Positions 17,762-47,438 of a stretch of DNA of 64,000 bases are shown one piece after another. Source of the stretch: a virus. The translations under genes and the position numbers were made by a program. Every line of letters starts with the position of its first letter. The stretch's first letter is position 1. The notes below the pieces were generated by a model, which worked only from the letters and a program-made list of their open reading frames with translations, did no database searches and was not told the DNA's origin. The stretch lies in the IMG/VR virus record IMGVR_UViG_3300048592_000564, positions 8,345 to 72,344 of that record. One strand, written 5' to 3'.

Positions 17762-18414
17762 ACACTTTCGACGCCCGAGCGATGCACCAAACGATCGGCC
17801 ACGACCACGGGATCGTGATCGAGGCCGGAAGCAATGAATTCGACGACACCGCCGGGTTCGTGGCCGAGATGCCGCTCGCCACGTTTCACTGCTTCGAGTG
17901 CGACCCCAGGGCGATCGCGAAGGCGAAAGCGAAGAACCTCCCCGCGAACGTCCACCTCTACGAGGTCGCGCTCTCGGACCAGGTCGGGACCCACGAGTTC
18001 CACCAGAGCGACGGCCAGCCGGACGGCGACTACTGGCGGGGCTACGGGAACCACTGGGACAAGAGCGGAAGTTTGCTCCCGAACGACCGCCACACCAAAT
18101 ACACGAACTGGATGTCGTTCCTGCCCCCGATCGTGGTCCCGACCACGACCCTGGACCACTGGGCGACCGAGTACCTCGCGCCCGACGCGGTCGTGGACCT
18201 GATTTGGGCTGACCTCCAGGGCTCGGAAGCCATGATGCTCCGCGGCGGCCAGCAGTTGATCAAGCGGCTCCGCTACCTGATCGCCGAATGCGACCCGCGG
18301 CCGTTATACAAAGGCATGGCCCGCCTCCAGGACCTCGACGCCCTGCTGCCGGGCTTTACCCGCGTGGCCGAGTACCGGGGATTCAATCACCTTTGGCGGA
18401 ACGACGCACTATGA
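17758..18414 (+). CDS. FkbM-family SAM methyltransferase
   Basis: IEAGS, FECDP, ALSD, TLD..DLIWADLQGSE. Confidence 0.85.
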   Translation: MNTFDARAMHQTIGHDHGIVIEAGSNEFDDTAGFVAEMPLATFHCFECDPRAIAKAKAKNLPANVHLYEVALSDQVGTHEFHQSDGQPDGDYWRGYGNHWDKSGSLLPNDRHTKYTNWMSFLPPIVVPTTTLDHWATEYLAPDAVVDLIWADLQGSEAMMLRGGQQLIKRLRYLIAECDPRPLYKGMARLQDLDALLPGFTRVAEYRGFNHLWRNDAL

Positions 18415-19256
18415 CGGCCATCCGGGTCAACCTGATCGGACAACTGGGAAACCAATTGTGCATCCATGTCTTCGCCAAGGTACTGGCAGTCAGGACCGGC
18501 CTTTGCTACCGCGCGCCGCGTTGCTTCCTGGACAAGCAGGGCCGCCCGCTCCAGTGGACCGGCGACCCGCTGTTCACCATGACACCCTCGCCAGGCCGAT
18601 CGGCCGGCGACCGGCGGCCCGTCAATCTCCGCTGCGGCCACTGGGTGGACGTGCCCGCACTCGAACACGCGACCCGGATCACGCTGAGTTGCGGCTACTA
18701 CCAGCGTTACGAGTATTTTCGCCCCTACGTGGACCAGATCAGGAACGAGTGGCTGAAGCTCCAGCGGCCGTTCCTGGAAACCGACCCCGCGGCGGTGTAC
18801 TGCCACGTTCGAAGACGTGATTACGTCCCGACCGCCCAGCGGCCCGTCACGCAACAGCAACAGCCGCTCGCCGCCACGCTGGACGAGTACGCGGCCTGCC
18901 TGCGGCACTTCCCGGACGCCCGACGACTCGTGGTCTGCACCGACGATCCCCGGGACCCGTGGCTCTACGAACTAAACCGCCTGGGGATCCCGGTGACGAT
19001 CAATGGCGGGACGTGGGACCACGACCTACTGACGCTCATGAGCGCCGAGAACCTGTTGATCTGCCAATCGACCTACAGCTGGTGGGCAGGCTTCCTGGGA
19101 CGCGCCCAGCGGATCGTCTGCCCGGTGTTTCCAGGGACGCACTGGCGGCTTGGACTGGATGGCGGACTCACGGGACCGCCCCGCAATGGCGACTACCCGT
19201 CGCTCTGTGTTGATGATGACCCCCGGTGGATTTGGGAACAAGGAGAGCAAGGATGA
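18411..19256 (+). CDS. GT11 alpha-1,2-fucosyltransferase-like protein
   Basis: GQLGNQ, GYYQ, HVRRRDY, TDD, STYSWWAGFL. Confidence 0.85.
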   Translation: MTAIRVNLIGQLGNQLCIHVFAKVLAVRTGLCYRAPRCFLDKQGRPLQWTGDPLFTMTPSPGRSAGDRRPVNLRCGHWVDVPALEHATRITLSCGYYQRYEYFRPYVDQIRNEWLKLQRPFLETDPAAVYCHVRRRDYVPTAQRPVTQQQQPLAATLDEYAACLRHFPDARRLVVCTDDPRDPWLYELNRLGIPVTINGGTWDHDLLTLMSAENLLICQSTYSWWAGFLGRAQRIVCPVFPGTHWRLGLDGGLTGPPRNGDYPSLCVDDDPRWIWEQGEQG

Positions 19257-20563
19257 TCGTAACGGTCGTGGGTACGGGAAAACTTGGTTCGTCGATGGCG
19301 GCCCTATTCGCCGCCGCGGGCCATACCGTCTATTGCGTGGACCGCAACCAGGAGTTCCTGGACGCGATCCGGGACCGGCGAGCACCCGTGCAAGAGCCGG
19401 GGCTCCAGGAGTTGATCGACCAGCATGGCGACCGGATGTTGCCAGTGGGGGTCGACCAGTGCCACGAGGCGGTGAGGCGAAGCGAATTCGTGTTTATCAT
19501 TGTCCCGACGCCCTCGACCGCGCGGGGCGACTTCTCGAACGAGTTTATCCTGGACGCCCTGGAGCCGATCAAGCAGGCGATCGTGGACGGCGCGCGGCCC
19601 CATATCGTGGTGACTTGTACCACCAGCCCCGGGGCATGCGAGAACGTCCTGATCCCGTCCCTGCAGGAGACCGGATGTTGCCCCGGGGTGGACTTCGGTT
19701 TCAGTTACAACCCGGAGTTTATTGCGCTCGGGAGCGTGATTCGGGACATGCGAAACCCGGACTTTATCCTGATTGGCTCAGTGTTGGTGCGCTGGGCCGA
19801 CCACCTCAGGCAGTTTTACGAAGAACTTCACCGAGACCTCGGTGACCCGCAGCCGACTGTCGCGAAGATGAGCCTCGTGAACGCCGAGATCACGAAACTG
19901 GCGGTCAATTGCTTTTGCACGATGAAGATCAGTTACGCGAACCAACTCGCGCGGCTCTGCGAGGCCATCCCGGGCGCCGACGCCAAAACGGTCACCGACG
20001 CCCTGGGGCTCGACGCGCGAATCGGCCGAAAGTACCTCGCCCCTGCGTCGATTTTCGGCGGCCCATGCTTCCCCCGTGACGGCCGCGCGTTCGAGCACGC
20101 CTGCCGAGCGACATCCACCACCGGATCGCCACTCGTCGAAGCCACGCAAGACATCAATCAGATGGTCGTCAATCACTTCGTGGACCTGATTGACCGCGGA
20201 ACACCAGACCGGCTCGCGATCTTGGGCCTGAGCTACAAGCCCGATACCCCGATGACCGACGAATCGCTCGCGACCCAGCTCATTCCCAGCTATGCGGGCC
20301 ACTTGACGGAGAACATTCGGCTTCACGACCCAATGGCCAAGATTCACGCCGCGCACTGCCGGCAATTCGAGAGTGCCCAGGAGGCCGTCCAGGACGCCGA
20401 CGTGGTCGTGATCGCGACCGCGTGGCCCGAGTACCGAGAACTCAAGCCCGAGTGGTTCAAGCGGTCCTGTCTGATCCTGGACCTCTGGAACGTGCTCGAC
20501 CCCGAGGCGTTTCGCAACCACAACCGTTATGTGCCCGGACGAGGACCCGCATGCAACGCTTGA
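19253..20563 (+). CDS. UDP-glucose/GDP-mannose dehydrogenase family protein
   Basis: GTGKLG, VPTP, NPEF, AEITKLAVN, FGGPCFPRD, LGLSYKPDT. Confidence 0.93.
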   Translation: MIVTVVGTGKLGSSMAALFAAAGHTVYCVDRNQEFLDAIRDRRAPVQEPGLQELIDQHGDRMLPVGVDQCHEAVRRSEFVFIIVPTPSTARGDFSNEFILDALEPIKQAIVDGARPHIVVTCTTSPGACENVLIPSLQETGCCPGVDFGFSYNPEFIALGSVIRDMRNPDFILIGSVLVRWADHLRQFYEELHRDLGDPQPTVAKMSLVNAEITKLAVNCFCTMKISYANQLARLCEAIPGADAKTVTDALGLDARIGRKYLAPASIFGGPCFPRDGRAFEHACRATSTTGSPLVEATQDINQMVVNHFVDLIDRGTPDRLAILGLSYKPDTPMTDESLATQLIPSYAGHLTENIRLHDPMAKIHAAHCRQFESAQEAVQDADVVVIATAWPEYRELKPEWFKRSCLILDLWNVLDPEAFRNHNRYVPGRGPACNA

Positions 20564-21546
20564 TCACGATGTCGACCTTGGGCCAGATCGCCCAAGCGGG
20601 TAATCACTTGGCCCAGTACGCGTTTCTCCGCTGGTACGCGCACCTCCACGGCGCCGAGTACCAGTGTCCACGCTGGGTCGGCCAGTATCTCTTTGGCTTC
20701 CAGGACCCGCCCGTGACCGTGAAGCTGCCCCAGGTCGAGGAACGGGTCGGCCCCGCGCCGCCCGGCCGGATCGGGATTCCGATTCCGCCCGTGGGCGACG
20801 AGTGGATCGGCCACGACTGGAAAGGCTACGGGCAATTCGACACCGCGTGGTACCAGCCCGGCCGAGAATTCATCCAGGGTCTCTACCGCGAACCCGCCGA
20901 GCCCCAGCGGTCCCGCGTGCTGCCGTTGGTCGACAAACTTCGCCAGCGAGGCAAGACCCTGATCGGGCTACACCTTCGAAGGGGCGACAGCGGCCGGGTA
21001 ATCTACCCATTTACGCCGATCGAGTGGTGCCTCCGCTGGCTCCACGACAACTGGCAACGCTTCGACGACCCCGTGCTCTATTGCTCGACCGAGCAGGCCA
21101 GTCTCGCGAGTTGGTTCTGTCACTACAACCCCGTGGTGGCCGAGGACCTTGGGATCACGTTCAAGGCGGAACCCTATCCCGGCTACCACTACCCGTTCCC
21201 GATCGAGCCCCGGAAGGCCCGGCAACTCGACTTCTTCCCCGATTGGGCGATCCTTCAGAGGTGCGATGTCCTGCTGGCCAGCGATTCAAGTTTCAGCATG
21301 ACGGCCGCCTGGACCAGCACTACACTGCGGGAGTGCTGGAGGATGAAACTCAGCCTCCGGGACTTCGAGCGCACTGATCCGTGGGACATGCACTTTTGCA
21401 ACCGCGAGCACCTGGACGACTACCCCGGCATCCCCGGGACGGCGATTGATTCCAACCCCGGATTCGGCTGGGAAGGATTCCGACCCAAGCACAAGGCCGT
21501 GCCCGAGGACCCCACGACGTTCCAACCTTACTTGAGGCCCCGATGA
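20551..21546 (+). CDS. Second, divergent GT11-like glycosyltransferase
   Basis: GNHLAQY, GYGQ, IGLHLRRGD, SSFSMTAAW. Confidence 0.75.
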   Translation: MQRLITMSTLGQIAQAGNHLAQYAFLRWYAHLHGAEYQCPRWVGQYLFGFQDPPVTVKLPQVEERVGPAPPGRIGIPIPPVGDEWIGHDWKGYGQFDTAWYQPGREFIQGLYREPAEPQRSRVLPLVDKLRQRGKTLIGLHLRRGDSGRVIYPFTPIEWCLRWLHDNWQRFDDPVLYCSTEQASLASWFCHYNPVVAEDLGITFKAEPYPGYHYPFPIEPRKARQLDFFPDWAILQRCDVLLASDSSFSMTAAWTSTTLRECWRMKLSLRDFERTDPWDMHFCNREHLDDYPGIPGTAIDSNPGFGWEGFRPKHKAVPEDPTTFQPYLRPR

Positions 21547-21719
21547 GCGAAGCACAGCGAATTTATCTCACGATCTACATGGGAGCAATCAGTGGATGGC
21601 TGGCCAATAAGTGGGCCAACCAAGGCGACCAAACAGCCGAGATGGCGCACAAAATCGCGGACGAGGTCGCAAAGCGCGGCACCATCGCGGTCGTGGACAT
21701 CGCAAAGGACGACGAATGA
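21543..21719 (+). CDS. Small hypothetical protein (58 aa, not in the ORF track)
   Basis: ATGA overlaps at both ends. Begins MSEAQRIYLTIYMG. Confidence 0.5.
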   Translation: MSEAQRIYLTIYMGAISGWLANKWANQGDQTAEMAHKIADEVAKRGTIAVVDIAKDDE

Positions 21720-22420
21720 TCACCGTCCTGATGGCCGCCAAGACCTCCGCCGAGTATATGCCCAACGCGATCGGGTCCCTGTTGGGCCAGACCTTCCAGG
21801 ACTGGCACCTCGTGATCGGGGTCAACGGCATCCCGGACCAACCGGCCGTCGCCAATCAAGCGTGGAGCACCGGCGAGCGCAGCATCCCGAACGACGTCTA
21901 CGAGATGGCGTGGCTCTACACGCGGCCGTTTTACTCGCGCGTGACCCTCATGAACATGCCGGACGCGCGCAATAAAGGCGAGGCCCTGAATCGCATGATG
22001 GAGCACGCCCAGGGCGAGTACGTCGCGATCCTGGACGTCGACGACCTCTGGCACCCGAGGAAACTGGAACTCCAACTCGAAACCGCCCGCCAGACCGGCG
22101 CGGACGTGATCGGGACCAGGGGGATGTATTTCGGGGCCGCGCGCGGCTCAATCGGGGTTCCGGCAGGGCCGGTGACGCTCGACTACCTGCGGCGGCAGAA
22201 CGGGATCTTGAATTCGTCCGCGCTGATCCGCCGCGAATTCGCCTGCTGGGAACCGATGGACGAACCCCTGGAGGATTACGAGCTTTGGCTCCGGCTCGCC
22301 AGCACGGGCCACCGGCTCCACAACGACTCCGACTACCTGACCTTCATCCGCTGCCACGCGGCCCAGTGGTCCCACGGAAATTGGCACATCGAAGAATTGA
22401 GGAAACGCTATGGCGGCTAA
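21716..22420 (+). CDS. GT2 glycosyltransferase
   Basis: SLLGQTFQDW, GEYVAILDVDDLW, EDYELWLR. Confidence 0.9.
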   Translation: MITVLMAAKTSAEYMPNAIGSLLGQTFQDWHLVIGVNGIPDQPAVANQAWSTGERSIPNDVYEMAWLYTRPFYSRVTLMNMPDARNKGEALNRMMEHAQGEYVAILDVDDLWHPRKLELQLETARQTGADVIGTRGMYFGAARGSIGVPAGPVTLDYLRRQNGILNSSALIRREFACWEPMDEPLEDYELWLRLASTGHRLHNDSDYLTFIRCHAAQWSHGNWHIEELRKRYGG

Positions 22421-23909
22421 CAAACGAGTTGCGCTCTGCTGTTTTGCGACCGGACGCTACAAGGAATTCCTTCCCGATCTGGCCCGCACCGCGAGGGAGC
22501 ACTTCGACCCCGGGGACACGCTCGACCTCGTGGGCTTCGTGGACAACGATCAAACGCCCGCCGGATTCGACCGCGTGTTCCAGATCCCGCACCTCCGCTG
22601 GCCCTACGGGACCCTCTACCGCTACCGCTGGCTGGCCGAGCGCGAGAAGGAACTCTCACAGTACGACTACCTGTTTATGTGCGATGTCGACATGCGGTTC
22701 GTCGGCCCGGTCGGGCCCGAGATCCTGGGCGGGCTCGTGGGGGTCCTGCATGCCGGGCACCTGAAGAAAAACCCCCAGGCGCTGCCCTACTGCCGCCACA
22801 AGGGTTCGACCGCGAGGGTGCGGCCCGGACTGGGCACCCGCTACTACGCGGGCGGGTTCCAGGGCGGGGCCGCGCGCCAGTACCTCAAGGCCTGCCGGCA
22901 CATCGCGGACAACATCACGCAGGACGAGCGACACCACTACATCGCGGACTGGCACGACGAGTCCCACTGGAACGCCTATCTGGTCAGCCGCCCGCCCGCG
23001 GTCTCGCTTTCGCCGCAATACTGCTGGGGTGAACCGGACGGCTGCCCACCAGGCACCAAGATTCTCGCGCTCGCGAAGGACCACGCGGCGTTCCGGAGTG
23101 ACGGGGCCGACCCGGCGTCCATCGCGCCCGTCACGGCACCGCCCGAACCCCCGGCCCCCGTGCCCGCCACGGCGCCCCAGAGCCGCCAGGACGTGAAGGA
23201 ACTGGTCCGGGCGGTCCAACGGTCCAACCTGCGGCCCGACGCACAGGCAAGCCTCCAGGGCCTGCTGGGTCAGCTCGACCGGGTACTCGACCGCGCGGCC
23301 CCGCGGGTCATGCACGCCGGCCCGCAGGGAGATCTTGCGGCGGTCCTGCGCGAACTCCTGCCACGCGACCCCGTGGTCTACGTGGACGTCGGGGCCTCGG
23401 AGCCGGTCGATTGCTCCAACACCCACCCGTTCTATCTCGCGGGCGGGCACGGGCTCTTGATCGAACCCCGGCCCAGCTGCTGGTACGCGATCCTGCTCCA
23501 ACGGCCGCGCGATCGCCTCTACCCGAAGGCGGTCGCGGCCCAGGAGGGCTGGGCCGACATGAAGCTCTGCGATGCCTGCTCGTCGCTCGACCAGACCTGG
23601 ACGAACGAAAAACGGGGCGAACTGCTGGTCCAGACCGAGCCCCTGGGTACCATTCTGCATCGCTTCCCCGAGATCCGAGACGCCTGCCAGTTGGTCTCGA
23701 TCGACACCGAGGGGACCGAGGAAGCGGTCATCGGGTCCGTGGACTGGACCACATTCCGCCCCCAGGTCGCGGTCGTCGAGCATGCGTCATTCCAGCGACC
23801 CGAGGAATCCGAGCACCGCGCGGACGCGATCCTGGGGCTCATGCGTGAAAGAGGCTACCGGGTCGTCCACCGGGACGCCATCAACCTAGTGTTCAAGAGG
23901 ATACCATGA
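22410..23909 (+). CDS. GT6 (ABO-like alpha-1,3-GalNAc/Gal transferase) fused to an FkbM methyltransferase
   Basis: ATGRY, YDYLFMCDVD, YYAGGFQGG, WHDESHWN, LSPQYCW, KDH. C-terminal YVDVGA...LIEP...SIDTEGTE. Confidence 0.9.
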   Translation: MAANKRVALCCFATGRYKEFLPDLARTAREHFDPGDTLDLVGFVDNDQTPAGFDRVFQIPHLRWPYGTLYRYRWLAEREKELSQYDYLFMCDVDMRFVGPVGPEILGGLVGVLHAGHLKKNPQALPYCRHKGSTARVRPGLGTRYYAGGFQGGAARQYLKACRHIADNITQDERHHYIADWHDESHWNAYLVSRPPAVSLSPQYCWGEPDGCPPGTKILALAKDHAAFRSDGADPASIAPVTAPPEPPAPVPATAPQSRQDVKELVRAVQRSNLRPDAQASLQGLLGQLDRVLDRAAPRVMHAGPQGDLAAVLRELLPRDPVVYVDVGASEPVDCSNTHPFYLAGGHGLLIEPRPSCWYAILLQRPRDRLYPKAVAAQEGWADMKLCDACSSLDQTWTNEKRGELLVQTEPLGTILHRFPEIRDACQLVSIDTEGTEEAVIGSVDWTTFRPQVAVVEHASFQRPEESEHRADAILGLMRERGYRVVHRDAINLVFKRIP

Positions 23910-24466
23910 TTCTGGAAAGCAATCTCCCCCGCTGGCTCGTCCGCGCCTTGTCGGTGCGGTTTGGCATCCGGCAATTCGTCGAAACCGGGACCCTGGAGGG
24001 CCACACGGCCGCACTGGTGGCCGAGGTCATCCCCGTGGTCCACACGATCGAGATCAGCCGCTCGATGTACGACCGGGCTACGAGTGAATGCCGCAAGAAC
24101 CCTCGGATCACCCGGCACCTCGGGAGTTCGGTGGACGTCATTCCTCAGCTTCTACCCAGCCTTGCCGGCCCGACGCTCTGGTACCTGGACGGGCACTGGT
24201 CCGGCATGGGGCCGAAACTCGGGATCGAGTGCCCGGTCCTGCAGGAACTGGCGCTCATCCAGGACAGGCCGCAGGACGTGATCGTGATCGACGACGCCCG
24301 GCTGTTCGACGCCCCGCCCTCGCCCCCGCATGATCCCGCCCAGTGGCCCAGCACTGCCGAGGTCGTGGCCGCCGCAAGGGCGCCGGGACGACACGTCGCC
24401 CGATTCCTCGACAGCATCGTGGCCAGCCCCACGCCGCTCTTTGCCGCCTTCCAGGAGACCCATTGA
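23906..24466 (+). CDS. Class I SAM methyltransferase-like protein
   Basis: FVETGTLEG, TIEIS, YLDGHWSG, VIDDARLF. Confidence 0.75.
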   Translation: MILESNLPRWLVRALSVRFGIRQFVETGTLEGHTAALVAEVIPVVHTIEISRSMYDRATSECRKNPRITRHLGSSVDVIPQLLPSLAGPTLWYLDGHWSGMGPKLGIECPVLQELALIQDRPQDVIVIDDARLFDAPPSPPHDPAQWPSTAEVVAAARAPGRHVARFLDSIVASPTPLFAAFQETH

Positions 24467-25203
24467 TGCGTATCCAGGCATTTCTTCCCACATTAGGACG
24501 CCCGCACCTGATCGAAGAGGCAATCACGATGTTCTGCCTCCAGAGTTATCAGGACCGCGAGCTCTTGATCTACGACACCGCGAACCAGATGCCCGAGCAA
24601 CAGGGCGACCGCTGGCGGATCGTCCACCAGGGCGAGCATCCGTGGTCGATGGGCACGACCTGCAACGTCGGGATCAGGATGTCGGACGCCGAACTGGTGT
24701 GTCGCTGGGACGATGATGATATGTACGCCCCTTGGCACCTTGAAGCCATCGTGGAAGCCCTGCAGACGAAGCCCTGGGCCTGCCCGTACAGCGTCTGGGA
24801 CGCGCAATTCAACCTGGACCGCCCACTGCTCTGCCGGCCCTACCGGAAGACCACTGAGGATCTCGCCTACGCGGGCACCTGGGCATTCACCCGCGCGGCC
24901 TTCGAAGAAATCGGGGGCTACCGCGAAGATTGCTTCCGCGAAGAGGAATGCGAGTTCCGCACGAGGCTCCACAACCGCTACGGGCCGCCGGCGGATTCCA
25001 CGGCCGGCCGATTTCCAGCGACCAGCTACGTGTACGCGTGCAACCAGGACCGGGTTCCCCACTACGGCCAGATGACCGACGACCAGCGACGCGCCCACCA
25101 GCGGAAGGCGTGGCCCCGGTGCGACAAGATCGAACCGAAATGGCCCCGCCGCTACATGCTCGGGCTGGCGAATGACGGCAAAATCCATCCCCGGAAGTTC
25201 TGA
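24466..25203 (+). CDS. GT2 glycosyltransferase
   Basis: PTLGRP, QSY..ELLIYD, RWDDDD, IGGY. Confidence 0.85.
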   Translation: MRIQAFLPTLGRPHLIEEAITMFCLQSYQDRELLIYDTANQMPEQQGDRWRIVHQGEHPWSMGTTCNVGIRMSDAELVCRWDDDDMYAPWHLEAIVEALQTKPWACPYSVWDAQFNLDRPLLCRPYRKTTEDLAYAGTWAFTRAAFEEIGGYREDCFREEECEFRTRLHNRYGPPADSTAGRFPATSYVYACNQDRVPHYGQMTDDQRRAHQRKAWPRCDKIEPKWPRRYMLGLANDGKIHPRKF

Positions 25204-25204
25204 G

Positions 25205-28055: not shown

Positions 28056-28064
28056 TTTTGTCCA

Positions 28065-33320: not shown

Positions 33321-33913
33321 GCCCAACTACCAACCTCCTGGACTGCTGCGTGCGGTCCATCCAAGGGCTCGACCACGAGCAGATCGACGACGCAGCCAGA
33401 ATACTCTCCCGCGTTAGACGCGAACGCGGTCGGCTATTTCTCGCCGGCTCAGGCGGCGGGGCCGCGCACGCCTCGCACGCCTGCTGCGATTTCAGAAAAC
33501 TTTGCGGCATCGAGGCATACTGTGTCTCGGACAACGCCGCCGAATTGACGGCCCGCGTCAACGACGACGGCTGGGAATCCAGTTATGCGAACTGGCTTCG
33601 GGTGCCCCGGCTTGATCGCAACGACGCCCTACTGATCGTGAGCGTCGGAGGAGGATCCACGCACCCACCGGTATCCACGAACCTCGTGACCGCAATGGAG
33701 TTCGCTCGATCGCTCGGGGCCGCTACCCTGGCCGTGGTTGGCCGTGATGGAGGACACGCGGGCCGGGTGGCCGATGTCGCGGTCCTGATCCCGTGCGATC
33801 GGCCGGAATTCGTGACGCCGGTCACGGAGGCGGTCCAGAGCGTAGTGCTCCACGCCCTCGCGGTCCATCCCCTGTTGGCAATCCTGAAGGCGAAATGGGA
33901 GGGACTTGTATGA
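33317..33913 (+). CDS. gmhA: SIS-domain phosphoheptose isomerase
   Basis: GSGGGAAHASH..D, TARVNDDGW, SVGGG, VGRDGG, TEAVQSVVLH. Confidence 0.85.
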   Translation: MSPTTNLLDCCVRSIQGLDHEQIDDAARILSRVRRERGRLFLAGSGGGAAHASHACCDFRKLCGIEAYCVSDNAAELTARVNDDGWESSYANWLRVPRLDRNDALLIVSVGGGSTHPPVSTNLVTAMEFARSLGAATLAVVGRDGGHAGRVADVAVLIPCDRPEFVTPVTEAVQSVVLHALAVHPLLAILKAKWEGLV

Positions 33914-35625: not shown

Positions 35626-36221
35626 ATGACGTTCGCGTGCTATTGGGATCGCCTCCGGGCCGCAACACCCGGCCTGAGCAACGACGAGACCTCGATGCGG
35701 ATCAGCGTCTTGAACTTCCGGCTCGCGATCAGCCGAGCCTACGCGGCCGGACGTGACGAGGCCCGGCAGCACATCGAGCGAACCGCCGACGAACTCACGG
35801 GCGACCAGGGCATCATGGACGTGTTCAAGGGGATTTTCGGGGACAAGCGATGACAAGATTTGAAAAGTTACTCGCGTACCTGCTCAAGTACCATTTTACC
35901 TACGACGAACTGGAAAAAATCGTCGACCTCAAACTGGAATGCGAGCACTATAGCGACATCGAGAGAGTCGTGTTTCCTGAATTGTCCCCAGCGGTCAATA
36001 AGCTATTGGCCCGGATGGGATGGGACGAAAAGCCGTACATTGAACGACTTCTTGATGAGCAAAGGCTCTATATGCAGGCGATCCATCAAGACGAACTGGC
36101 AGAACGGCAGGCCCTTATCGAACGCATGCACACGCAATGCCATTCGGTTCGCAACCTTGCTAGCATGCGCGACGCCGCCCAAAGGTTTTTGCGTGACACC
36201 GAGGACTGTAAGGTCTCATGA
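35626..36221 (+). other. Two coupled hypothetical CDSs (35626-35853, 35850-36221)
   Basis: ATGA overlaps. Confidence 0.5.
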
Positions 36222-36715
36222 ATCAGGCATGCTTTTTCGATCTCGACGGAACTTTGGTCCGCGCTTTCCCCGAGGGCGACACCACCCGTGGACCACGGAC
36301 CCGCGATGAGGTTGAAATCCTGCCGGGCACCAAAGAGTCGCTCGACCGACTATTCGACGCAGGCTACGCGTTGCTTGTGGTCACGAACCAGCCGGGACTT
36401 GCCCGCGGCGACCTCGACCCATTGGAACACGCGGGCGTTCGGCTGATGATCCGCGTGGAACTGCCGGTTCGCAAAATCTATACTTGCCCGCACGACGGCG
36501 ACTGGTGCGCATGCAGGAAGCCGCGGCCGGGGCTCATCATCGGAGCCGCGGTCGAATACGAACTCGACCTCGCCCGCTGCTGGATGATCGGCGACCGGGA
36601 GTCGGACCGTGAGGCCGCGATCCGGGCCGGGATCCCGCAGGCCCAGACGATCAAGCTCGAAACCAACCAAGGCATCAAGGAGGCGGTGGACGCAATCCTT
36701 GCCTTTGCAAAATGA
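36218..36715 (+). CDS. gmhB: HAD-IIIA heptose-1,7-bisphosphate phosphatase
   Basis: FDLDGT, VTNQPG, CPH..C.CRKPRPG, MIGDRESD. Confidence 0.88.
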   Translation: MNQACFFDLDGTLVRAFPEGDTTRGPRTRDEVEILPGTKESLDRLFDAGYALLVVTNQPGLARGDLDPLEHAGVRLMIRVELPVRKIYTCPHDGDWCACRKPRPGLIIGAAVEYELDLARCWMIGDRESDREAAIRAGIPQAQTIKLETNQGIKEAVDAILAFAK

Positions 36716-36727
36716 CCGTTTTTATAC

Positions 36728-36821: not shown

Positions 36822-37412
36822 GTGGCTTCGATAAATTGTATCATGGACTGCCCGCCGTTGCCAGTTGTAGAAGGTGTTGAAATTCGGCACTGCGAAGGAT
36901 ATCCAGGGTACGCCATTGGCAGCGATGGCTCCCCGTGGTCGTGCCGGCCGTGCGTCCGAACTGGGCTCAAAATAGCATGGAGGCGACTTACGCCATGCCC
37001 AGACAAACAAGGCTACCTGCACATCAGTTGCCAGGTGAACGGGCGGCTGATTCGCCCCAAAATAGGCCACCTTGTAGCCAACGCATTCATCGGGCCAAAT
37101 CCAGGAAAGCTGGATTTGTGTCACGGGGACGGCAATAAGCAGAACAACCGCGTCGAAAACCTGCGGTGGGGGACTCGCAGCGAGAACACGCAGGACGCAT
37201 TACGGCACGGCACGTTTCACATTGTTGGGCATCCAGGGGAACGTAACGCAAACTCCAAAATTACCGCATCGCAGGTCAAGGAAATTCGCAGCACCCCAGG
37301 GAAAAGCCACGTCGAATGGGCGCGCGAACTTGGCGTTACCCCAACGGCAATTTATTCAATTCGCGCAGGAAGGACATGGAAGAATGAACCAAGCCCTCGA
37401 CATAACGATTGA
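36822..37412 (+). CDS. Free-standing HNH homing endonuclease
   Basis: YPGYAIGSDG, HLVANAFIGP..CHGDGNKQNNRVENLRWGT..EN, HTH tail. Overlaps the transaldolase start. Confidence 0.9.
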   Translation: MASINCIMDCPPLPVVEGVEIRHCEGYPGYAIGSDGSPWSCRPCVRTGLKIAWRRLTPCPDKQGYLHISCQVNGRLIRPKIGHLVANAFIGPNPGKLDLCHGDGNKQNNRVENLRWGTRSENTQDALRHGTFHIVGHPGERNANSKITASQVKEIRSTPGKSHVEWARELGVTPTAIYSIRAGRTWKNEPSPRHND

Positions 37413-38115
37413 CGTGTTTTGCGACTCCGCCGACCTCACGATCATGCACGGAATCGTGGAGCAGTACCCCTATGTGCGAGGCTGGACCACCAACCCTTCG
37501 ATCTGCCGACGCTGTGGGGTCGTGGACTACAAGGGCTTTATCGTGGACGCGCTCACGAAGCTGCCACCGCTCCCCTTGTCCGTCGAGGTTGTGGCCGACG
37601 AGCCACGCGAGATTGATAAGCAGGCCCGCTACCTGGAACGCTTGGCTCGCTTGCACGGTCGGCGAGATACGCTGTATGTCAAGGTCCCAGCCGTGAACTC
37701 GCGCGGCATTTCGCTCGCGCCATTGATGCGAGAACTTGCCCAGGATGGCGTGCAGATCAACGCCACGGCGGTGCTGTCCTACGAGAGCGCCGAACTGGTT
37801 ACCGACGCCCTGTCGGGCGGTCCCGCCTCTTGGGTCTCGGTCTTTGTCGGGAGACTGGCCGACCGAGGCACTGAACCACTGGACGAAATGCCGCGATATG
37901 TGAAGCGGATCAACGAAGCGACCCGCACAATCTGGGCCAGTCCCCGAGAACCGCTAAACGTGCTTCAAGCGCAACGCCTCGGCTTCGACGCTATCACGGT
38001 GTTTCACGACTTCATCAAAAAGCTCCACCTGTTCGGCAAGGACTTGCGTGAGTTTGAGATTGAGACGAGCCGTATGTTCTTGCAGGATTCCATTTCGGCG
38101 GGGTACCAGATATGA
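37384..38115 (+). CDS. tal: Transaldolase (TalC/FSA-like)
   Basis: FCDSAD, GWTTNPS, YVKVP (Schiff-base Lys), INATAV, SVFVGRLAD, WASPRE. Confidence 0.88.
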   Translation: MNQALDITIDVFCDSADLTIMHGIVEQYPYVRGWTTNPSICRRCGVVDYKGFIVDALTKLPPLPLSVEVVADEPREIDKQARYLERLARLHGRRDTLYVKVPAVNSRGISLAPLMRELAQDGVQINATAVLSYESAELVTDALSGGPASWVSVFVGRLADRGTEPLDEMPRYVKRINEATRTIWASPREPLNVLQAQRLGFDAITVFHDFIKKLHLFGKDLREFEIETSRMFLQDSISAGYQI

Positions 38116-38332
38116 CAAACCGCCCCCTTCAATACGGCCGATGGAACATCCGATGCCGACTGACCGTTGACTGCCTGCGCCGAACCTACGACCGCGACCC
38201 CGGCTGGAGACTACTCAGCATCGGGATATTCCGGCTCGCGCCCATGATCCCCGTTGGCGATGATCCCCGTTACCACGTCGAGCGGGGCTTCTGGTGGGAA
38301 ATCGACATCTGGCTCCCGTGGAGGATTCGCTC

Positions 38333-38620: not shown

Positions 38621-38621
38621 A

Positions 38622-39194
38622 ATGAAACTTGGCCTGCACGCATCAGCTTTCGACCCGATCCACCCAGGCTATCTGTACGCGTGGCATCAGGCCCTGGACG
38701 CCGGGGCGTGCGACGGCATCGTGGCCGCGATCCATGCAGACCCAAGTACCGAAAGGTCAGAGAAACGCCGCCCGGCCATGACGGTCAAGGAACGAATCGC
38801 GATCCTGGAGCAATTCCGCGTCGTCCAGACGGTCTGCGTCTACGTCGACGAACGGCAGTTGTACGAGATGATCAGGAGCACCCGTCCCGCGTGCCTGATC
38901 ATAGGCGAAGACCACGAGTTCGACCGCGTGACCGGCGCCGACCTCGCGCCAGTGTTTTGGGCCAAACGCAATCCCGAGTGGTCCGGTACCCAGATCGCGA
39001 GACGCATTGCCGCCAGTTTGCCCGACGTGGCCGCGAGCCTACGATTCACCGAAGGACTCGACCCCGAGGTCATGGCCCGCTATCCTGCCCAGGACCTCCT
39101 GAGCATCCACGCGATCTTCAAGTCCATCGGGGACGCGTTCGACCGCCACCTGGCCGACCGCGCGGCCCGTGGATGCGAGCCCGGCCAGATGTAA
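38622..39194 (+). CDS. Cytidylyltransferase-family nucleotidyltransferase (TagD/RfaE domain II-like)
   Basis: SAFDPIHPGY (variant HxGH), KRRPAMTVKER, IIGED. Confidence 0.75.
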   Translation: MKLGLHASAFDPIHPGYLYAWHQALDAGACDGIVAAIHADPSTERSEKRRPAMTVKERIAILEQFRVVQTVCVYVDERQLYEMIRSTRPACLIIGEDHEFDRVTGADLAPVFWAKRNPEWSGTQIARRIAASLPDVAASLRFTEGLDPEVMARYPAQDLLSIHAIFKSIGDAFDRHLADRAARGCEPGQM

Positions 39195-39712: not shown

Positions 39713-40041
39713 CCGTTCCGTTCAGCCAGTCCCGCGGTCGAGTGGTCGACCAAGTGATCTATTCCAAATACGCCGAGGCCGCGATCGTGCGGTGGCAGGA
39801 CGGGGCCTATTCGTTCATCGGCTACAAGCCCGGATACGAGGCAGGCGACGGCGAGCTTCGGGACGAAGAATGGGACGACCGACAGTTCTCGGAACAGGAG
39901 ATTATGGCGGCCGGGATCGCGACCCAACAGGACCTTGACCAGCGGAAAGCCGAAATTGCGGCGCGGTTTGAAAGCAACCAACGAACCGCAAGGCTGCTTC
40001 AGTTTCAGCGGCTCAAGCAAGAGTTCGAACCGGGGGAATAG
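39697..40041 (+). CDS. Hypothetical protein
   Basis: GGAG RBS, acidic, helical C-terminus. Confidence 0.55.
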   Translation: MHAILTVPFSQSRGRVVDQVIYSKYAEAAIVRWQDGAYSFIGYKPGYEAGDGELRDEEWDDRQFSEQEIMAAGIATQQDLDQRKAEIAARFESNQRTARLLQFQRLKQEFEPGE

Positions 40042-40043
40042 CC

Positions 40044-40700
40044 ATGTCGATCCTGATCGGCCTCTTGACCTGCCATGCCCACCGGGAGCGGGACCTGCTC
40101 GTCGAGCAGACCTGGAAGCCCGTCGCGGAATCCTTGGGCATGCGGGTCGTGTTCCTGATCGGGGACGGCCCCAAGGTACCGCCGACGTGGCTCGACGGGG
40201 ACTATCTGCGGATCCCGTGCCCGGACGACTACCCACATTTGCCGCAGCGATCGGCTGGATTCTTCCGTTGGGCGCTCACGCAGCCCGACTGGGATGTGCT
40301 TGTCAAAGGAGACAACGATTCCCTGATCATTCCCGAGCGACTCGCGGCCGTCTCGATGGAGGACGTGGACTACCGTGGCGCCGAGTGGAAACCGGGGGTC
40401 AATTATGCGAGCGGCGGGGCAGGCTACATGCTTTCCCGCCACGCCACCCAGATCGCGGCCGAGAGACTGAAGGAGCGGGCGGGCGCCGAAGACCTCCTAA
40501 CTGGAAAGCACTTGCGACGGGCCGGGATCAAGTTCACGATCGACCAACGCTTCGACCCGTGGGGCCGCGACCCGCCGACACCCGAGAACGACAAGATCAC
40601 GACCCACAAGCTCGACCGGGAGCGGTGGCTGGCGTGCTGGGGGCAGTTTCAGCGGTCGAGTCCGCAGACCCGACAGAATGTGGACGAGCACCCAGAGTAA
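40044..40700 (+). CDS. GT31-like (beta-1,3-galactosyltransferase/fringe-like) glycosyltransferase
   Basis: DDYPHLPQR, KGDND, YASGGAGYMLSR, EDLLTG, THK. Confidence 0.75.
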   Translation: MSILIGLLTCHAHRERDLLVEQTWKPVAESLGMRVVFLIGDGPKVPPTWLDGDYLRIPCPDDYPHLPQRSAGFFRWALTQPDWDVLVKGDNDSLIIPERLAAVSMEDVDYRGAEWKPGVNYASGGAGYMLSRHATQIAAERLKERAGAEDLLTGKHLRRAGIKFTIDQRFDPWGRDPPTPENDKITTHKLDRERWLACWGQFQRSSPQTRQNVDEHPE

Positions 40701-47436: not shown

Positions 47437-47438
47437 TG

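What the first reader, a model, noticed from the sequence alone, without database searches (positions are those of the whole stretch)
18411..40700. Phage-encoded GT31 + GT11 + GT6 set that could build a blood-group-A-like glycan
Seen: a GT6 domain (22410) with the DVD motif, WHDESH and YYAGGFQGG; two GT11-like genes (18411, 20551); a GT31-like gene (40044); and galE. Known: GT31 makes beta-1,3 linkages, GT11 adds alpha-1,2-fucose (H antigen), and GT6 adds alpha-1,3-GalNAc or Gal (A or B antigen). The tripeptide at the human LGG/MGA position sets donor choice, and AGG is associated with UDP-GalNAc. Most bacterial GT6 enzymes have NxN in place of DxD; this one has the vertebrate/phage-type DVD. 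Inference: one phage carries the full ordered enzyme set for a GalNAc-alpha1,3(Fuc-alpha1,2)Gal-type cap, and the FkbM domain fused to the GT6 may O-methylate it. No gmd/fcl genes are present in the window, so the GT11 donor is uncertain.
Basis: partly seen in the sequence, partly recalled or inferred. Interest (0 to 1): 0.88.

Follow-up and report, generated by a model that had tools for sequence, protein, structure and literature searches.

The report
Phage glycan island with blood-group-type enzymes
A high-GC phage fragment carries a large sugar-chain-building gene island whose core enzyme closely resembles the human and bacterial blood-group-A synthase, but such enzyme sets turn out to be common in environmental viruses and bacteria, so it is a good new example, not a new kind of thing.

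Summary
22410-23909 encodes a true GT6 domain (Pfam 1.3e-34) with DVD, YYAGGFQGG and WHDESH, fused to an FkbM methyltransferase. 40044-40700 is a true GT31 by profile and by fold. 27087-28055 is GalE. 18411-19256 and 20551-21546 belong to the GDP-fucose fucosyltransferase superfamily; the first is borderline for Pfam GT11 and the second gets no Pfam match.

The GT6 shares with the characterised A-antigen synthase BoGT6a the AGG donor tripeptide and three acceptor determinants (His, Gly, small residue). In other viral contigs, adjacent GT31-GT6-GT11 cassettes recur in 5 of 80 loci, with Pfam-confirmed flanks. GT11-like/GT6, FkbM/GT11-like and GT6/FkbM fusions also exist. An A-like GalNAc-alpha1,3(Fuc-alpha1,2)Gal motif is therefore plausible.

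The reading needs correcting in four ways:
- The island is much larger: GT4, two GT2, UDP-sugar dehydrogenase, sulfotransferase, more methyltransferases and a heptose-nucleotide pathway.
- GT31 lies 16 kb from GT6.
- The second GT11-like gene's conserved partners are methyltransferases, GT2 and the dehydrogenase; GT6 is near it in only 4 of 80 loci.
- DxD-type GT6 is the rule in bacterial relatives (77 of 80).

Phage P-SSM2 already has the GT11-like/FkbM/GT6/epimerase arrangement. No biochemistry exists, and no capsid or terminase gene was found.

The parts
15819..17282 (+). GT4-type (GT-B) glycosyltransferase
   Evidence: PF00534 E 4.6e-12. Relatives at 41-55% identity lie beside GT6 and GT31 in Planctomycetota MAG loci L085, L086 and L140.
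17758..18414 (+). Free-standing FkbM-family methyltransferase; its stop overlaps the start of GT11a
   Evidence: PF05050 E 2.9e-11. TIGR01444 56.4 bits against a cut-off of 37.7. FkbM1-like genes occur in 30 of 80 GT11b-family loci, often directly upstream.
18411..19256 (+). GT11-like fucosyltransferase-superfamily gene 'GT11a' (HVRRRDY motif)
   Evidence: PF01531 23.0-23.7 bits against a cut-off of 23.9. 25 of 34 relatives carry PF01531. tblastn links it to Pfam-confirmed GT11 genes next to GT6 in viral loci.
19226..20563 (+). UDP-glucose/nucleotide-sugar 6-dehydrogenase
   Evidence: PF03721, PF00984 and PF03720. TIGR03026 282.8 bits against a cut-off of 189.8.
20551..21546 (+). Divergent fucosyltransferase-superfamily gene 'GT11b' (HLRRGD motif)
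   Evidence: No Pfam match. hhalign to the GT11a family at 99%. Profile hits only FUT8, E 0.017. AF2 pLDDT 94.2. All printed Foldseek matches are fucosyltransferases. P0055 is a fusion of this family with GT6.
21611..22420 (+). GT2 glycosyltransferase 'GT2a' between GT11b and GT6
   Evidence: PF00535 E 1.5e-15. The order GT11b-GT2a-GT6 is kept in metagenome loci L167, L169 and L172. GT6-GT2a-GT31 occurs in L086.
22410..23909 (+). GT6 catalytic domain (residues ~4-222; DVD 22683-22691, YYAGGFQGG 22842-22868, WHDESH 22950-22967) fused through a Pro/Ala-rich linker to an FkbM methyltransferase domain (residues ~326-485)
23906..24466 (+). orf186, a probable class I SAM-dependent methyltransferase (lead only)
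   Evidence: No Pfam or NCBIfam match. ESM Atlas feature scores of 0.97-0.98 to clusters auto-named SAM methyltransferase; structural matches include fusions to GT2 and FkbM. It recurs in 18 of 161 GT6 loci (the 160 fetched plus P-SSM2) and in 23 of 80 GT11b loci.
24343..25203 (+). Second GT2 glycosyltransferase 'GT2b' (start uncertain; overlaps orf186)
   Evidence: PF00535 E 2.5e-6, 28 bits against a cut-off of 23.3. Present in 21 of 80 GT11b loci.
25172..25831 (+). Sulfotransferase
   Evidence: PF00685 E 2.5e-8.
27087..28055 (+). UDP-glucose 4-epimerase GalE
   Evidence: TIGR01179 294.2 bits against a cut-off of 262.3. Best PDB match 2c20, E 2e-63.
28162..29115 (+). HNH_3 endonuclease, first of three inside the island (also 30865-31830 and 36822-37412), in a lower-GC stretch
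   Evidence: PF13392 E 9.3e-11, 1.6e-10 and 2.8e-11. GC is 0.56 at 28-32 kb against about 0.63 elsewhere.
31812..32729 (+). GHMP sugar kinase, HddA-like (heptose-7-phosphate kinase type)
   Evidence: PF00288 and PF08544. NF049969 E 1.6e-38, but 133 bits against a cut-off of 600.
33236..33913 (+). SIS-domain protein, GmhA-like (sedoheptulose-7-P isomerase type)
   Evidence: PF13580. TIGR00441 E 1.4e-11, below its cut-off.
36218..36715 (+). HAD-IIIA phosphatase, GmhB-like
   Evidence: NF006506 E 9.6e-25, 87 bits against a cut-off of 178. TIGR01662 76 bits against a cut-off of 44.6.
37222..38115 (+). Transaldolase (a possible sedoheptulose-7-P supply)
   Evidence: PF00923 E 3e-27. TIGR02134 213 bits against a cut-off of 282.
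38622..39194 (+). Cytidylyl/adenylyl-transferase-like nucleotidyltransferase (RfaE domain II-like)
   Evidence: PF01467 E 1.8e-9. TIGR02199 E 2e-11, below its cut-off.
40044..40700 (+). GT31 glycosyltransferase (beta-1,3 type; DND in place of DDD)

Best explanation
What it is. The window is most of a 72-kb fragment of a high-GC phage. The host is possibly in Planctomycetota or another PVC phylum. From at least 15.8 kb to 40.7 kb the fragment carries a surface-glycan biosynthesis island made of several modules.

The core module runs, in order: dehydrogenase, GT11b, GT2a, GT6-FkbM, orf186 (methyltransferase-like), GT2b, sulfotransferase. Much the same gene set (all of these but GT2b, plus a free-standing FkbM) is found in one metagenome relative at 30-52% identity.

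Proposed chemistry (inferred, not shown):
1. A beta-linked galactose is laid down by GT2a or by the GT31 enzyme.
2. One of the two fucosyltransferase-superfamily enzymes adds fucose from host-made GDP-fucose, giving a Fuc-alpha1,2-Gal acceptor.
3. The metal-dependent GT6 domain adds alpha-1,3-GalNAc. UDP-GalNAc may come through the phage GalE.
4. The FkbM domain fused to GT6, and/or the neighbouring methyltransferases and the sulfotransferase, cap the product.

The resulting blood-group-A-like motif would be one part of a larger glycan that also draws on a uronic acid and a phage-made nucleotide-heptose.

The likely target is the infected or lysogenised cell's envelope polysaccharide, for receptor masking or superinfection exclusion, as proposed for cyanophage cell-wall gene clusters. 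Virion glycosylation is not excluded.

Shown here: the family and fold assignments, the motifs, the gene order, and the recurrence in other loci. Inferred: the donors, acceptors, linkages, order of steps and target.
For: GT6 identity and catalytic residues:
- PF03414 scores 1.3e-34. 72 distinct PDB GT6 sequences match at E<=1e-3, the best being BoGT6a at 1e-31.
- DVD, WHDESH and YYAGGFQGG are present.

Substrate determinants:
- In the BoGT6a alignment, BoGT6a YYAGGLSGG pairs with YYAGGFQGG. His122, Gly124, Tyr153 and Trp189-Glu192 pair with His114, Gly116, Tyr145 and Trp181-Glu184.
- By ungapped counting from the aligned Y214/W206, Ile228 and Lys231 pair with Ala220 and Lys223. Both are invariant in the fusion family.
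- PMC3516806 (passages) names His, Gly and a small residue at these three sites as what lets GTA, GTB and BoGT6a take 2'-fucosylated acceptors. The alpha-3GalT enzyme has Gln, Trp and Trp there.
- The same paper (section 8) reports that PaGT6, the DxD-type relative of the P-SSM2 enzyme, transfers GalNAc to H antigen and needs Mn or Mg.

Linkage to fucosyltransferases:
- GT11a-like genes lie in 31 of 80 viral GT6 loci, 12 of them within 300 bp of GT6, and in 10 of 80 genome loci.
- Five viral loci have GT31-GT6-GT11 side by side. Their flanks score 35-43 bits for PF01762 and 71-97 bits for PF01531. Their GT6 proteins are only 47-88% identical to one another.
- P0055 is a GT11b-like/GT6 fusion.
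- The GT11b fold matches only fucosyltransferases among the printed rows.

Linkage to methylation:
- The GT6-FkbM architecture occurs in 7 other protein clusters, in viral loci L011 and L026, and in Bacteroidota loci L095 and L102.
- In P-SSM2 a methyltransferase gene ends where the GT6 gene starts.
- P0084 and P0031 are FkbM/GT11-like fusions.
- Precedent: the third domain of chlorovirus A064R methylates the rhamnose that its second domain adds (PMC9614988, passages).

Phage context:
- The record is an IMG/VR virus record, CheckV estimate 56% complete.
- PHROG matches include primase-helicase, replication initiator, RusA, DNA methylase and HNH endonucleases.
- Three HNH_3 genes lie inside the island.
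Against: - No enzyme of this family branch has been assayed.
- GT11a is only at the Pfam threshold, and GT11b has no GT11 match. Neither the alpha-1,2 linkage nor GDP-fucose use can be read from sequence.
- The record has no gmd, so the donor must come from the host.
- The GT11b family is found with GT6 in only 4 of 80 loci. It is found with FkbM1-like genes in 30, orf186-like in 23, GT2b-like in 21 and the dehydrogenase in 12. Its primary partnership is therefore not with GT6.
- GT11a and GT31 relatives are absent from all 80 of those loci.
- BoGT6a Thr134, an acceptor hydrogen-bond donor, aligns with Pro126.
- The NCBIfam model that matches best is named 'family 6 glucosyltransferase'. The match scores 142 bits against a cut-off of 250. 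The name is unexplained.
- GT31 lies 16 kb from GT6.
- No flippase, polymerase or priming transferase was seen among the ORFs scanned.
- No capsid, tail or terminase gene was found among the 20 large non-island ORFs scanned in the record.
- The host assignment rests on a FastTree placement (SH-like 93) and on identity ranks.
Confidence: 0.5

Rival explanations
1. The enzymes are as assigned, but no A-like epitope is made. The GT11-like enzymes work with the FkbM and orf186 methyltransferases, GT2b and the dehydrogenase in a separate branch, for example a methylated deoxyhexose plus uronic acid. GT6 adds its sugar (GalNAc, Gal or Glc) to an acceptor that is not fucosylated or not galactose-based.
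For: - In 80 loci fetched with the GT11b family, GT6 is present in 4. FkbM1-like is present in 30, orf186-like in 23, GT2b-like in 21 and the dehydrogenase in 12.
- FkbM/GT11-like fusions exist: P0084 and P0031.
- There is no gmd in the record.
- BoGT6a Thr134 is not conserved.
- The best-matching NCBIfam model is named 'family 6 glucosyltransferase'.
- GT11a-like genes are absent from 49 of 80 viral and 70 of 80 genome GT6 loci within the flanks fetched.
Against: - Three acceptor determinants (His, Gly, small residue) and the AGG tripeptide match the fucosyl-acceptor, GalNAc-donor enzymes and not alpha-3GalT.
- The only assayed DxD-type prokaryotic GT6 makes A antigen on H acceptors.
- GT11 genes directly abut GT6 in 12 of 80 viral loci.
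- A GT11b-like/GT6 fusion exists.
Confidence: 0.3
2. The contig is not a phage. It is a bacterial polysaccharide gene island, or a degraded prophage region, that was classed as viral. The glycan genes would then be ordinary host genes.
For: - No capsid, portal, tail or terminase match was found among the ORFs scanned.
- Several large ORFs have no family at all.
- GT4, GT6, GT2a and GT31 have 38-55% relatives clustered in Planctomycetota MAGs.
- A pilin-type N-terminal methylation motif protein and a sigma factor are present.
Against: - The record is an IMG/VR virus record with a CheckV estimate.
- It has a coherent phage replication module: initiator, primase-helicase, RusA, DNA methylase and a queuine-tRNA-ribosyltransferase-like gene.
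- Four HNH endonuclease genes lie between genes.
- Nearly all genes are on one strand.
- The estimated 44% missing could hold the structural genes.
Confidence: 0.12
3. The island decorates the phage's own virion proteins, as chloroviruses and some mycobacteriophages glycosylate their capsids. It does not act on the host envelope.
For: - No flippase, polymerase or lipid-carrier priming enzyme was seen among the scanned ORFs.
- All transferases look soluble.
- Precedent: the virus-encoded multi-domain GT-methyltransferase A064R acts on the capsid protein (PMC9614988, passages).
Against: - No structural genes are in the record to link with.
- Uronic acid, heptose and sulfate point to envelope-type polysaccharide.
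- Cyanophage clusters of this kind are interpreted as host cell-surface modifiers (PMC12801897, passages).
- Close relatives of four of the genes sit in bacterial gene clusters.
Confidence: 0.2

Closest known systems
Cyanophage P-SSM2 GT6 (PSSM2_268) and its LPS/cell-wall gene cluster
   Same: A phage-encoded DxD-type GT6 with DVD, YYAGGFNGG and WHDESH, 37% identical over residues 6-230. A methyltransferase gene lies directly upstream, a GT11a-like gene 1.5 kb upstream, and sugar epimerases and GT2 genes around it. It is placed in the 'minimal catalytic domain, DxD' clade in PMC3516806.
   Different: In P-SSM2 the methyltransferase is a separate gene; here it is fused to GT6. P-SSM2 is a low-GC T4-like cyanomyovirus. 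There is no DNA similarity, and this fragment has a lambdoid-style replication module. No GT31-like, sulfotransferase or heptose-gene match was found in the 18.7-kb P-SSM2 stretch fetched.
BoGT6a (Bacteroides ovatus) and PaGT6 (Parachlamydia acanthamoebae), prokaryotic blood-group-A synthases
   Same: BoGT6a is the best PDB match (E 1e-31). It shares the AGG tripeptide, the catalytic WHDE, and the His/Gly/small-residue acceptor sites. PaGT6 shares the DxD motif and metal dependence, and transfers GalNAc to H antigen.
   Different: BoGT6a has NxN, is metal-independent, and carries a C-terminal membrane-binding segment. Here the C-terminus is an FkbM domain. Thr134 is not conserved. The activity of the window protein is untested.
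E. coli O86 O-antigen genes (GT6 WbnI with a GT11 alpha-1,2-fucosyltransferase) and human FUT1/2 + GTA/GTB
   Same: The same logic applies: a GT11 enzyme makes H antigen and a GT6 enzyme then caps it (PMC4202792, passages).
   Different: Those systems make B or A antigen as proven structures. My recollection that the O86 beta-1,3-galactosyltransferase is a GT2 enzyme, which would parallel GT2a here, comes from no call. Those clusters have no methyltransferase fusion, sulfotransferase or heptose pathway.
Chlorovirus PBCV-1 A064R (two glycosyltransferase domains plus a methyltransferase domain)
   Same: A virus-encoded fusion in which a methyltransferase domain methylates the sugar added by the neighbouring transferase domain (PMC9614988, passages).
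   Different: The transferase families and sugar (rhamnose) are unrelated. The host is eukaryotic and the target is the capsid protein. The paper describes the methyltransferase as class I SAM-dependent, not as FkbM.
Cell-wall synthesis and modification gene sets of large cyanophages (S-SCSM2R, S-SCSM1)
   Same: Many glycosyltransferases, including GT11, together with nucleotide-sugar epimerases in one phage, read as host-surface modifiers (PMC12801897, passages).
   Different: The passages I read list no GT6, GT31, FkbM fusion, sulfotransferase or heptose pathway for those phages. I did not see their supplementary tables.

Membership tests
CAZy GT6 / Pfam PF03414 | Profile match above the curated cut-off | tested here: met
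   119.9 bits against a cut-off of 25; 120.9 bits in the six-frame search.
CAZy GT6 / Pfam PF03414 | DxD (or NxN) nucleotide-sugar/metal motif and the catalytic Glu in W-H-D-E | tested here: met
   DVD at 92-94; WHDESH at 181-186 aligned to BoGT6a Trp189-Glu192. PMC3516806 calls this Glu conserved in all known GT6.
CAZy GT6 / Pfam PF03414 | Retaining alpha-1,3 transfer of Gal/GalNAc to a beta-galactoside | not testable with these tools
   Needs an enzyme assay.
Blood-group-A-synthase type within GT6 (GTA, BoGT6a, PaGT6) | Donor-site tripeptide of the GalNAc type | tested here: met
   AGG, as in BoGT6a. It is also the commonest tripeptide in relatives: 38 of 80 viral and 53 of 80 genome loci.
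Blood-group-A-synthase type within GT6 (GTA, BoGT6a, PaGT6) | Acceptor sites that admit 2'-fucose (His at A1, Gly/Ser at A2, small residue at A7) | tested here: met
   His114 and Gly116 by alignment. Ala220 by ungapped counting past the end of the alignment; it is invariant in the fusion family. Site definitions come from PMC3516806. Thr134 aligns with Pro126 and is not conserved.
CAZy GT11 / Pfam PF01531 (alpha-1,2-fucosyltransferases) | Profile match above the curated cut-off | tested here: inconclusive
   GT11a: 23.0 and 23.7 bits against 23.9, or 24.4 summed; 25 of 34 relatives carry PF01531. GT11b: no match; 4 of 46 relatives carry PF01531.
CAZy GT11 / Pfam PF01531 (alpha-1,2-fucosyltransferases) | HxRRxD GDP-fucose motif and fucosyltransferase-type fold | tested here: met
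   HVRRRD and HLRRGD. The His, the first Arg and the Asp of this motif are invariant in both family alignments; the second Arg is nearly invariant. Both profiles hit only FUT8, at this motif. The GT11b model matches FUT8, NodZ, AtFUT1 and POFUT1. The motif is shared with GT23, GT37, GT65 and GT68, so it does not single out GT11. That it binds GDP-fucose is recalled knowledge.
CAZy GT11 / Pfam PF01531 (alpha-1,2-fucosyltransferases) | Alpha-1,2 transfer of L-fucose from GDP-fucose to galactose | not testable with these tools
   Needs an assay. No solved GT11 structure appeared among the matches.
CAZy GT31 / Pfam PF01762 | Profile match, relatives in the family, and GT-A fold closest to GT31 members | tested here: met
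   26.1 bits against a cut-off of 23. 43 of 45 aligned family members match PF01762. Profile against PDB: C1GalT1 2.7e-20, B3GalT6 2.1e-18, B3GNT2 8.9e-14. Foldseek top ranks are B3GNT2, B3GalT6 and C1GalT1, TM 0.68-0.76 by query.
CAZy GT31 / Pfam PF01762 | DxD motif (DDD in the family consensus) | tested here: met
   DND at the aligned site. The two outer Asp residues are nearly invariant (at least 90%) in the alignment, and the preceding Lys88 is invariant. DND is also seen in L068 and L074.
UDP-glucose 4-epimerase GalE (TIGR01179) | Equivalog model above its cut-off | tested here: met
   294.2 bits against 262.3.
Nucleotide-heptose pathway (GmhA, kinase, GmhB, nucleotidyltransferase) | All four steps present as equivalogs | tested here: inconclusive
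   All four steps have their best or near-best matches in this pathway and lie within 7.4 kb. Every equivalog score is below its cut-off. The kinase is GHMP type (GDP-heptose route) while the nucleotidyltransferase is RfaE-II type (ADP-heptose route), so the product nucleotide is unclear.
Tailed phage | Hallmark structural or packaging genes (capsid, portal, terminase, tail) | tested here: not met
   None found among the 20 large non-island ORFs scanned against PHROGs and/or Pfam. Replication-module PHROG matches are present. The record is estimated 56% complete.

The most novel reading that the evidence does not exclude
Environmental viruses carry a conserved, portable cassette for a complete histo-blood-group-A-like epitope. 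It appears as GT31-GT6-GT11 in some lineages and as GT11b-GT2-GT6 with FkbM in this one. Here GT6-FkbM would be a bifunctional 'add-and-cap' enzyme that attaches alpha-1,3-GalNAc and then O-methylates the product. Infected PVC-type bacteria, or the virions, would then display a methylated and sulfated A-like antigen. This would put metal-dependent A-synthase cassettes on mobile viral DNA, which bears on the proposed prokaryote-to-vertebrate transfer of GT6.
Probability: 0.3. Interest if true: 0.7.

Novelty: new member of a known kind. Interest (0 to 1): 0.5.

Why it matters
GT6 enzymes make the ABO, alpha-Gal and Forssman antigens. Their patchy spread between vertebrates, a few bacteria and a cyanophage has been explained by horizontal transfer (PMC3516806).

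This window and the loci fetched around it show three things:
- DxD-type GT6 genes are abundant in viral contigs (309 confirmed stretches in IMG/VR) and in PVC, Dependentiae and other bacteria (424 stretches).
- They repeatedly sit next to, or are fused with, GT11-type fucosyltransferases, GT31 enzymes and FkbM methyltransferases.
- A phage can carry them together with its own sugar-nucleotide supply.

If the chemistry is confirmed, these would be compact, soluble, metal-dependent A-antigen-type synthases with a built-in methyl cap. They would be useful for glycan synthesis, and for asking why viruses of environmental bacteria display or mask such epitopes. As it stands the case is well supported but untested, and its nearest model (P-SSM2) has been in the databases for years.

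Tried and rejected
DNA-level relatives. blastn of 18001-26000 against 50,697 phage records found nothing. The search for related loci with the single fusion protein found nothing in IMG/VR. Only the alignment-based scan worked.

GT11b as a plain GT11. This was rejected as a membership claim. It has no Pfam or NCBIfam match, and only 4 of 46 relatives carry PF01531. It is kept as a member of the fucosyltransferase superfamily.

GT11b and GT6 as an obligate pair. I expected this after finding the P0055 fusion. The metagenome scan did not bear it out: GT6 is present in 4 of 80 loci.

gmd in the record. None was found. I ran no separate model search for fcl. The only SDR-family protein I saw is GalE, whose weak partial match to the fcl model is 42 bits against a cut-off of 500.

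Structural genes. PHROGs and Pfam gave nothing for the large ORFs at the left end of the record and window, nor for 43822-45408 and 46447-47772. ESM Atlas gave no usable hit for the 1345-aa ORF.

Donor of the P-SSM2 enzyme. The NCBIfam name 'family 6 glucosyltransferase' made me look for a report of UDP-Glc use. I found none in the library (and a term search within PMC3516806).

Print searches for a phage GT31/GT11/GT6 set or a GT6-FkbM fusion. Searches found no such description. Subscription-journal papers and supplementary files were not visible. In particular I did not see the 2010 JBC review of GT6, which I only recall.

GalE specificity. The residue aligned with the Cys of 'AACYAD' in chain 6k0i is Leu, in '...GDPAMLVAD'. 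I recall, from no call, that this is the gatekeeper site, that Tyr there restricts the enzyme to non-acetylated substrates, and that smaller residues go with UDP-GalNAc/UDP-GlcNAc activity. I give this little weight.

NoeI. Passages of PMC6275314 say it is responsible for the methyl-fucose of Nod factors. That NoeI belongs to the FkbM family is my recollection only.

Rows left out:
- Alignment A1 used 28 of the 45 non-self hits.
- A2 used 27 of the 34 hits.
- A4 used 44 of the 150 listed hits, all of about 199-237 aa.
- Fragments, fusions and long multi-domain proteins were dropped.
- The loci sets are the best 80 of 309, 424 and 247 confirmed stretches, ranked by likeness to the query. The frequencies therefore describe near relatives, not the families at large.
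- The GT6 tree is FastTree with SH-like support only. Eight rows have deviant composition and four have long branches.

Full report
WHAT THE WINDOW IS

The window is bases 8345-72344 of a 72,344-base IMG/VR virus record. The record is classed linear, and CheckV estimates it 56% complete. GC is about 0.63, with a dip to 0.56 at 28-32 kb. Nearly all ORFs with codon-position GC typical of genes are on the + strand.

The right third (48-64 kb) is a phage replication module:
- a queuine-tRNA-ribosyltransferase-like gene (phrog_887, 1.8e-60), a sigma factor, a primase-helicase and a DNA methylase;
- a replication initiator, a further HNH endonuclease and RusA.

No capsid, portal, tail or terminase match was found among the 20 large non-island ORFs that I scanned in the window and in the 8.3 kb to its left. 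'Phage-encoded' therefore rests on the database class, the replication module and the HNH genes. It does not rest on structural genes. The DNA has no relative among 50,697 phage records.

THE OBSERVATION

22410-23909 encodes 499 residues:
- The N-terminal 222 match Pfam GT6 at 1.3e-34.
- Residues 326-485 match FkbM at 2e-13.
- The two domains are joined by a Pro/Ala-rich linker.
- DVD, YYAGGFQGG and WHDESH are all there.

27087-28055 passes the GalE equivalog model.

40044-40700 just passes Pfam Galactosyl_T, and the assignment becomes firm with more data:
- A full HMMER scan found 1259 relatives.
- 43 of the 45 that I aligned match PF01762.
- Their profile hits the solved GT31 enzymes C1GalT1, B3GalT6, B3GNT2 and B3GalT5 at 1e-13 to 1e-20.
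- A confident model (pLDDT 95.4) has those enzymes as its best fold matches.

The two 'GT11-like' genes are weaker as GT11 but solid as fucosyltransferase-superfamily members:
- GT11a sits at the Pfam threshold, and 25 of its 34 relatives are marked PF01531.
- GT11b has no family match at all.
- The GT11b family profile aligns with that of GT11a at 99% probability.
- Both profiles hit only FUT8, across the HxRRxD motif.
- The GT11b model (pLDDT 94.2) matches FUT8, NodZ, plant FUT1 and POFUT1 in every printed row.

There is no gmd in the record.

The same stretch also encodes:
- a GT4 (15819);
- a free-standing FkbM (17758), whose stop overlaps the GT11a start;
- a nucleotide-sugar 6-dehydrogenase (19226);
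- GT2a (21611), between GT11b and GT6;
- orf186 (23906), which the ESM Atlas points to as a further SAM methyltransferase (lead only);
- GT2b (24343);
- a sulfotransferase (25172).

After GalE come three HNH_3 endonuclease genes, interleaved with five more genes: a GHMP kinase closest to HddA, a SIS protein closest to GmhA, a HAD phosphatase closest to GmhB, a transaldolase, and an RfaE-domain-II-like nucleotidyltransferase. These cover four consecutive steps of nucleotide-heptose synthesis plus a possible sedoheptulose-7-phosphate supply. All score below the equivalog cut-offs. GT31 follows this block, 16 kb from GT6. A second GT4-like gene lies at 4259-5611.

DOES THE GT6 LOOK LIKE AN A-ANTIGEN SYNTHASE?

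The best solved relative is BoGT6a (1e-31). It transfers GalNAc to 2'-fucosyllactose (PMC3516806, passages). In the printed alignment:
- the donor-site tripeptide is the same (AGG);
- the catalytic WHDE is the same;
- BoGT6a His122, Gly124 and Tyr153 pair with His114, Gly116 and Tyr145.

The paper states that His, Gly and a small residue at three sites let GTA, GTB and BoGT6a take 2'-fucosylated acceptors. Alpha-3GalT has Gln, Trp and Trp at those sites.

The third site lies beyond the end of the HMMER alignment. Counting without gaps from the aligned Tyr214/Trp206 puts BoGT6a Ile228 and Lys231 on Ala220 and Lys223. Both are invariant in the fusion family. This last step is my inference.

One acceptor contact, Thr134, aligns with Pro126.

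The only assayed DxD-type prokaryotic GT6, PaGT6, makes A antigen on H acceptors and needs Mn or Mg (section 8 of the paper).

The donor and acceptor reading is therefore reasonable, but it is the default for this clade and not special to this protein. AGG is the commonest tripeptide among relatives (38 of 80 viral, 53 of 80 genome loci), and P-SSM2 has DVD/AGG/WHDESH too. DxD is not a vertebrate or phage hallmark either: all 80 viral and 77 of the 80 bacterial relatives have it. That sample is ranked by likeness to the query.

IS THERE A FUNCTIONAL SET?

I fetched the best 80 of 309 viral and the best 80 of 424 genome stretches that encode GT6 relatives. I then searched them with the window's proteins.

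| Gene found near GT6 | Viral loci (of 80) | Genome loci (of 80) |
|---|---|---|
| GT11a-like, anywhere in the flanks | 31 | 10 |
| GT11a-like within 300 bp of GT6 | 12 | 2 |
| GT31-like, anywhere in the flanks | 12 | 4 |
| GT31-like within 300 bp of GT6 | 8 | 2 |
| GT31, GT6 and GT11 side by side | 5 | 0 |

In the five viral loci with the adjacent trio, the flanking genes are clear family members. PF01762 scores 35-43 bits and PF01531 scores 71-97 bits. The GT6 proteins are 47-88% identical to one another. Synteny has therefore outlasted much sequence change.

Fusion proteins point the same way:
- P0055 joins a GT11b-like domain to GT6.
- P0084 and P0031 join FkbM to GT11-like domains.
- GT6-FkbM occurs in seven other clusters, and in separate viral and Bacteroidota loci.

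P-SSM2 has a GT11a-like gene, a methyltransferase that ends where GT6 starts, and an epimerase just downstream.

THE COUNTER-EVIDENCE

I fetched the best 80 of 247 metagenome stretches that encode GT11b relatives.

| Window gene with a relative in the locus | Loci (of 80) |
|---|---|
| GT6 | 4 |
| FkbM1-like | 30 |
| orf186-like | 23 |
| GT2b-like | 21 |
| dehydrogenase | 12 |
| GT11a | 0 |
| GT31 | 0 |

FkbM1-like genes are often directly upstream of GT11b. The GT11b family therefore belongs first to a methyltransferase/GT2/dehydrogenase module.

GT6, with GT2a, joins that module only in the nearest relatives. L167 holds dehydrogenase, two FkbM, orf186-like, GT11b, GT2a, GT6 and sulfotransferase. 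The order GT11b-GT2a-GT6 matches the window in L167, L169 and L172.

The window's island thus looks like a mosaic:
- a GT4/FkbM/GT11a unit;
- the core module;
- GalE;
- a heptose/GT31 unit.

Relatives of GT4, GT6, GT2a and GT31 at 38-55% identity cluster in Planctomycetota MAGs (L085, L086, L129, L140). In a FastTree of the GT6 domain, the window's fusion family is sister to a Phycisphaerae sequence (SH-like 93), inside a wider group that includes other Planctomycetota sequences. This is a weak pointer to the host.

MECHANISM AND STATUS

The most likely reading is the one given under Best explanation: a beta-galactoside made by GT2a or GT31, fucosylated by a GT11-like enzyme with host GDP-fucose, capped with alpha-1,3-GalNAc by GT6, then methylated and perhaps sulfated. 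This would happen on a larger envelope glycan of the infected cell.

The fused FkbM acting on the GT6 product has a viral precedent in A064R (PMC9614988, passages). The strong FkbM/GT11 association allows methylation of the fucose instead.

None of the donors, linkages or targets is shown.

NOVELTY

Three things are already known:
- phage GT6 (P-SSM2);
- its clade, and the A-synthase activity of a clade member (PMC3516806);
- large cyanophage clusters of GT11 and epimerase genes (PMC12801897, passages).

Four things I did not find described in the library:
- the recurrent viral GT31-GT6-GT11 cassette;
- the GT6-FkbM and GT11-like/GT6 fusions;
- the pairing of such a module with a sulfotransferase and a phage heptose pathway;
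- its presence in a high-GC, non-cyanophage contig.

I file it as a new member of a known kind with some new architectural variants.

Noticed in passing
window 31812-39194: A compact set of genes matching consecutive nucleotide-heptose steps: an HddA-like GHMP kinase, a GmhA-like SIS protein, a GmhB-like HAD phosphatase and an RfaE-II-like nucleotidyltransferase. A transaldolase lies among them and could supply sedoheptulose-7-phosphate. The kinase and the nucleotidyltransferase come from different canonical routes, so the activated heptose is unclear.
   Followed up: partly
window 28162-29115, 30865-31830, 36822-37412, 57927-58571: Four HNH endonuclease genes. Three are HNH_3 type and lie between sugar-metabolism genes, in or near a lower-GC stretch (0.56 at 28-32 kb). 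They look like homing-endonuclease insertions.
   Followed up: partly
window 23906-24466: orf186 has no Pfam or NCBIfam match. ESM Atlas places it with clusters auto-named class I SAM methyltransferase, and with fusions to GT2 and FkbM. Relatives lie in 18 of 161 GT6 loci (the 160 fetched plus P-SSM2) and 23 of 80 GT11b loci.
   Followed up: partly
window 49117-50070: A queuine tRNA-ribosyltransferase-like gene (phrog_887, E 1.8e-60) lies at the start of the replication module. It may be a DpdA-type enzyme for 7-deazaguanine DNA modification.
   Followed up: no
window 5824-6822 (-) and 7791-7867 (-): A 332-aa protein has a prepilin-type N-terminal methylation motif (20.7 bits, just under the cut-off). 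A tRNA-Leu (anticodon TAG) lies nearby. Both are on the minority strand.
   Followed up: no
L163 1665-5702 and 5630-7612; window 922-4262: Very large ORFs (1345, 660, 565 and 548 aa) at the left end have no Pfam, PHROG or Atlas match. They may be structural or fibre proteins of an undescribed phage lineage.
   Followed up: partly
window 4259-5611: A second GT4-like glycosyltransferase (PF00534, E 1.4e-7) lies 10 kb upstream of the main island.
   Followed up: no
L077 10001-10603 and 11454-12038: One viral contig carries two GT6 genes in tandem, next to a GT31-like gene.
   Followed up: no
proteins P0093, P0096, P0094: Metagenomic GT6 domains are also fused to GT2 domains, and to class I methyltransferase domains other than FkbM.
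   Followed up: no
window 25828-26496; L039 962 and L050 318: An unannotated ORF after the sulfotransferase has 53-54% identical relatives in two viral GT6 loci. No family match.
   Followed up: no
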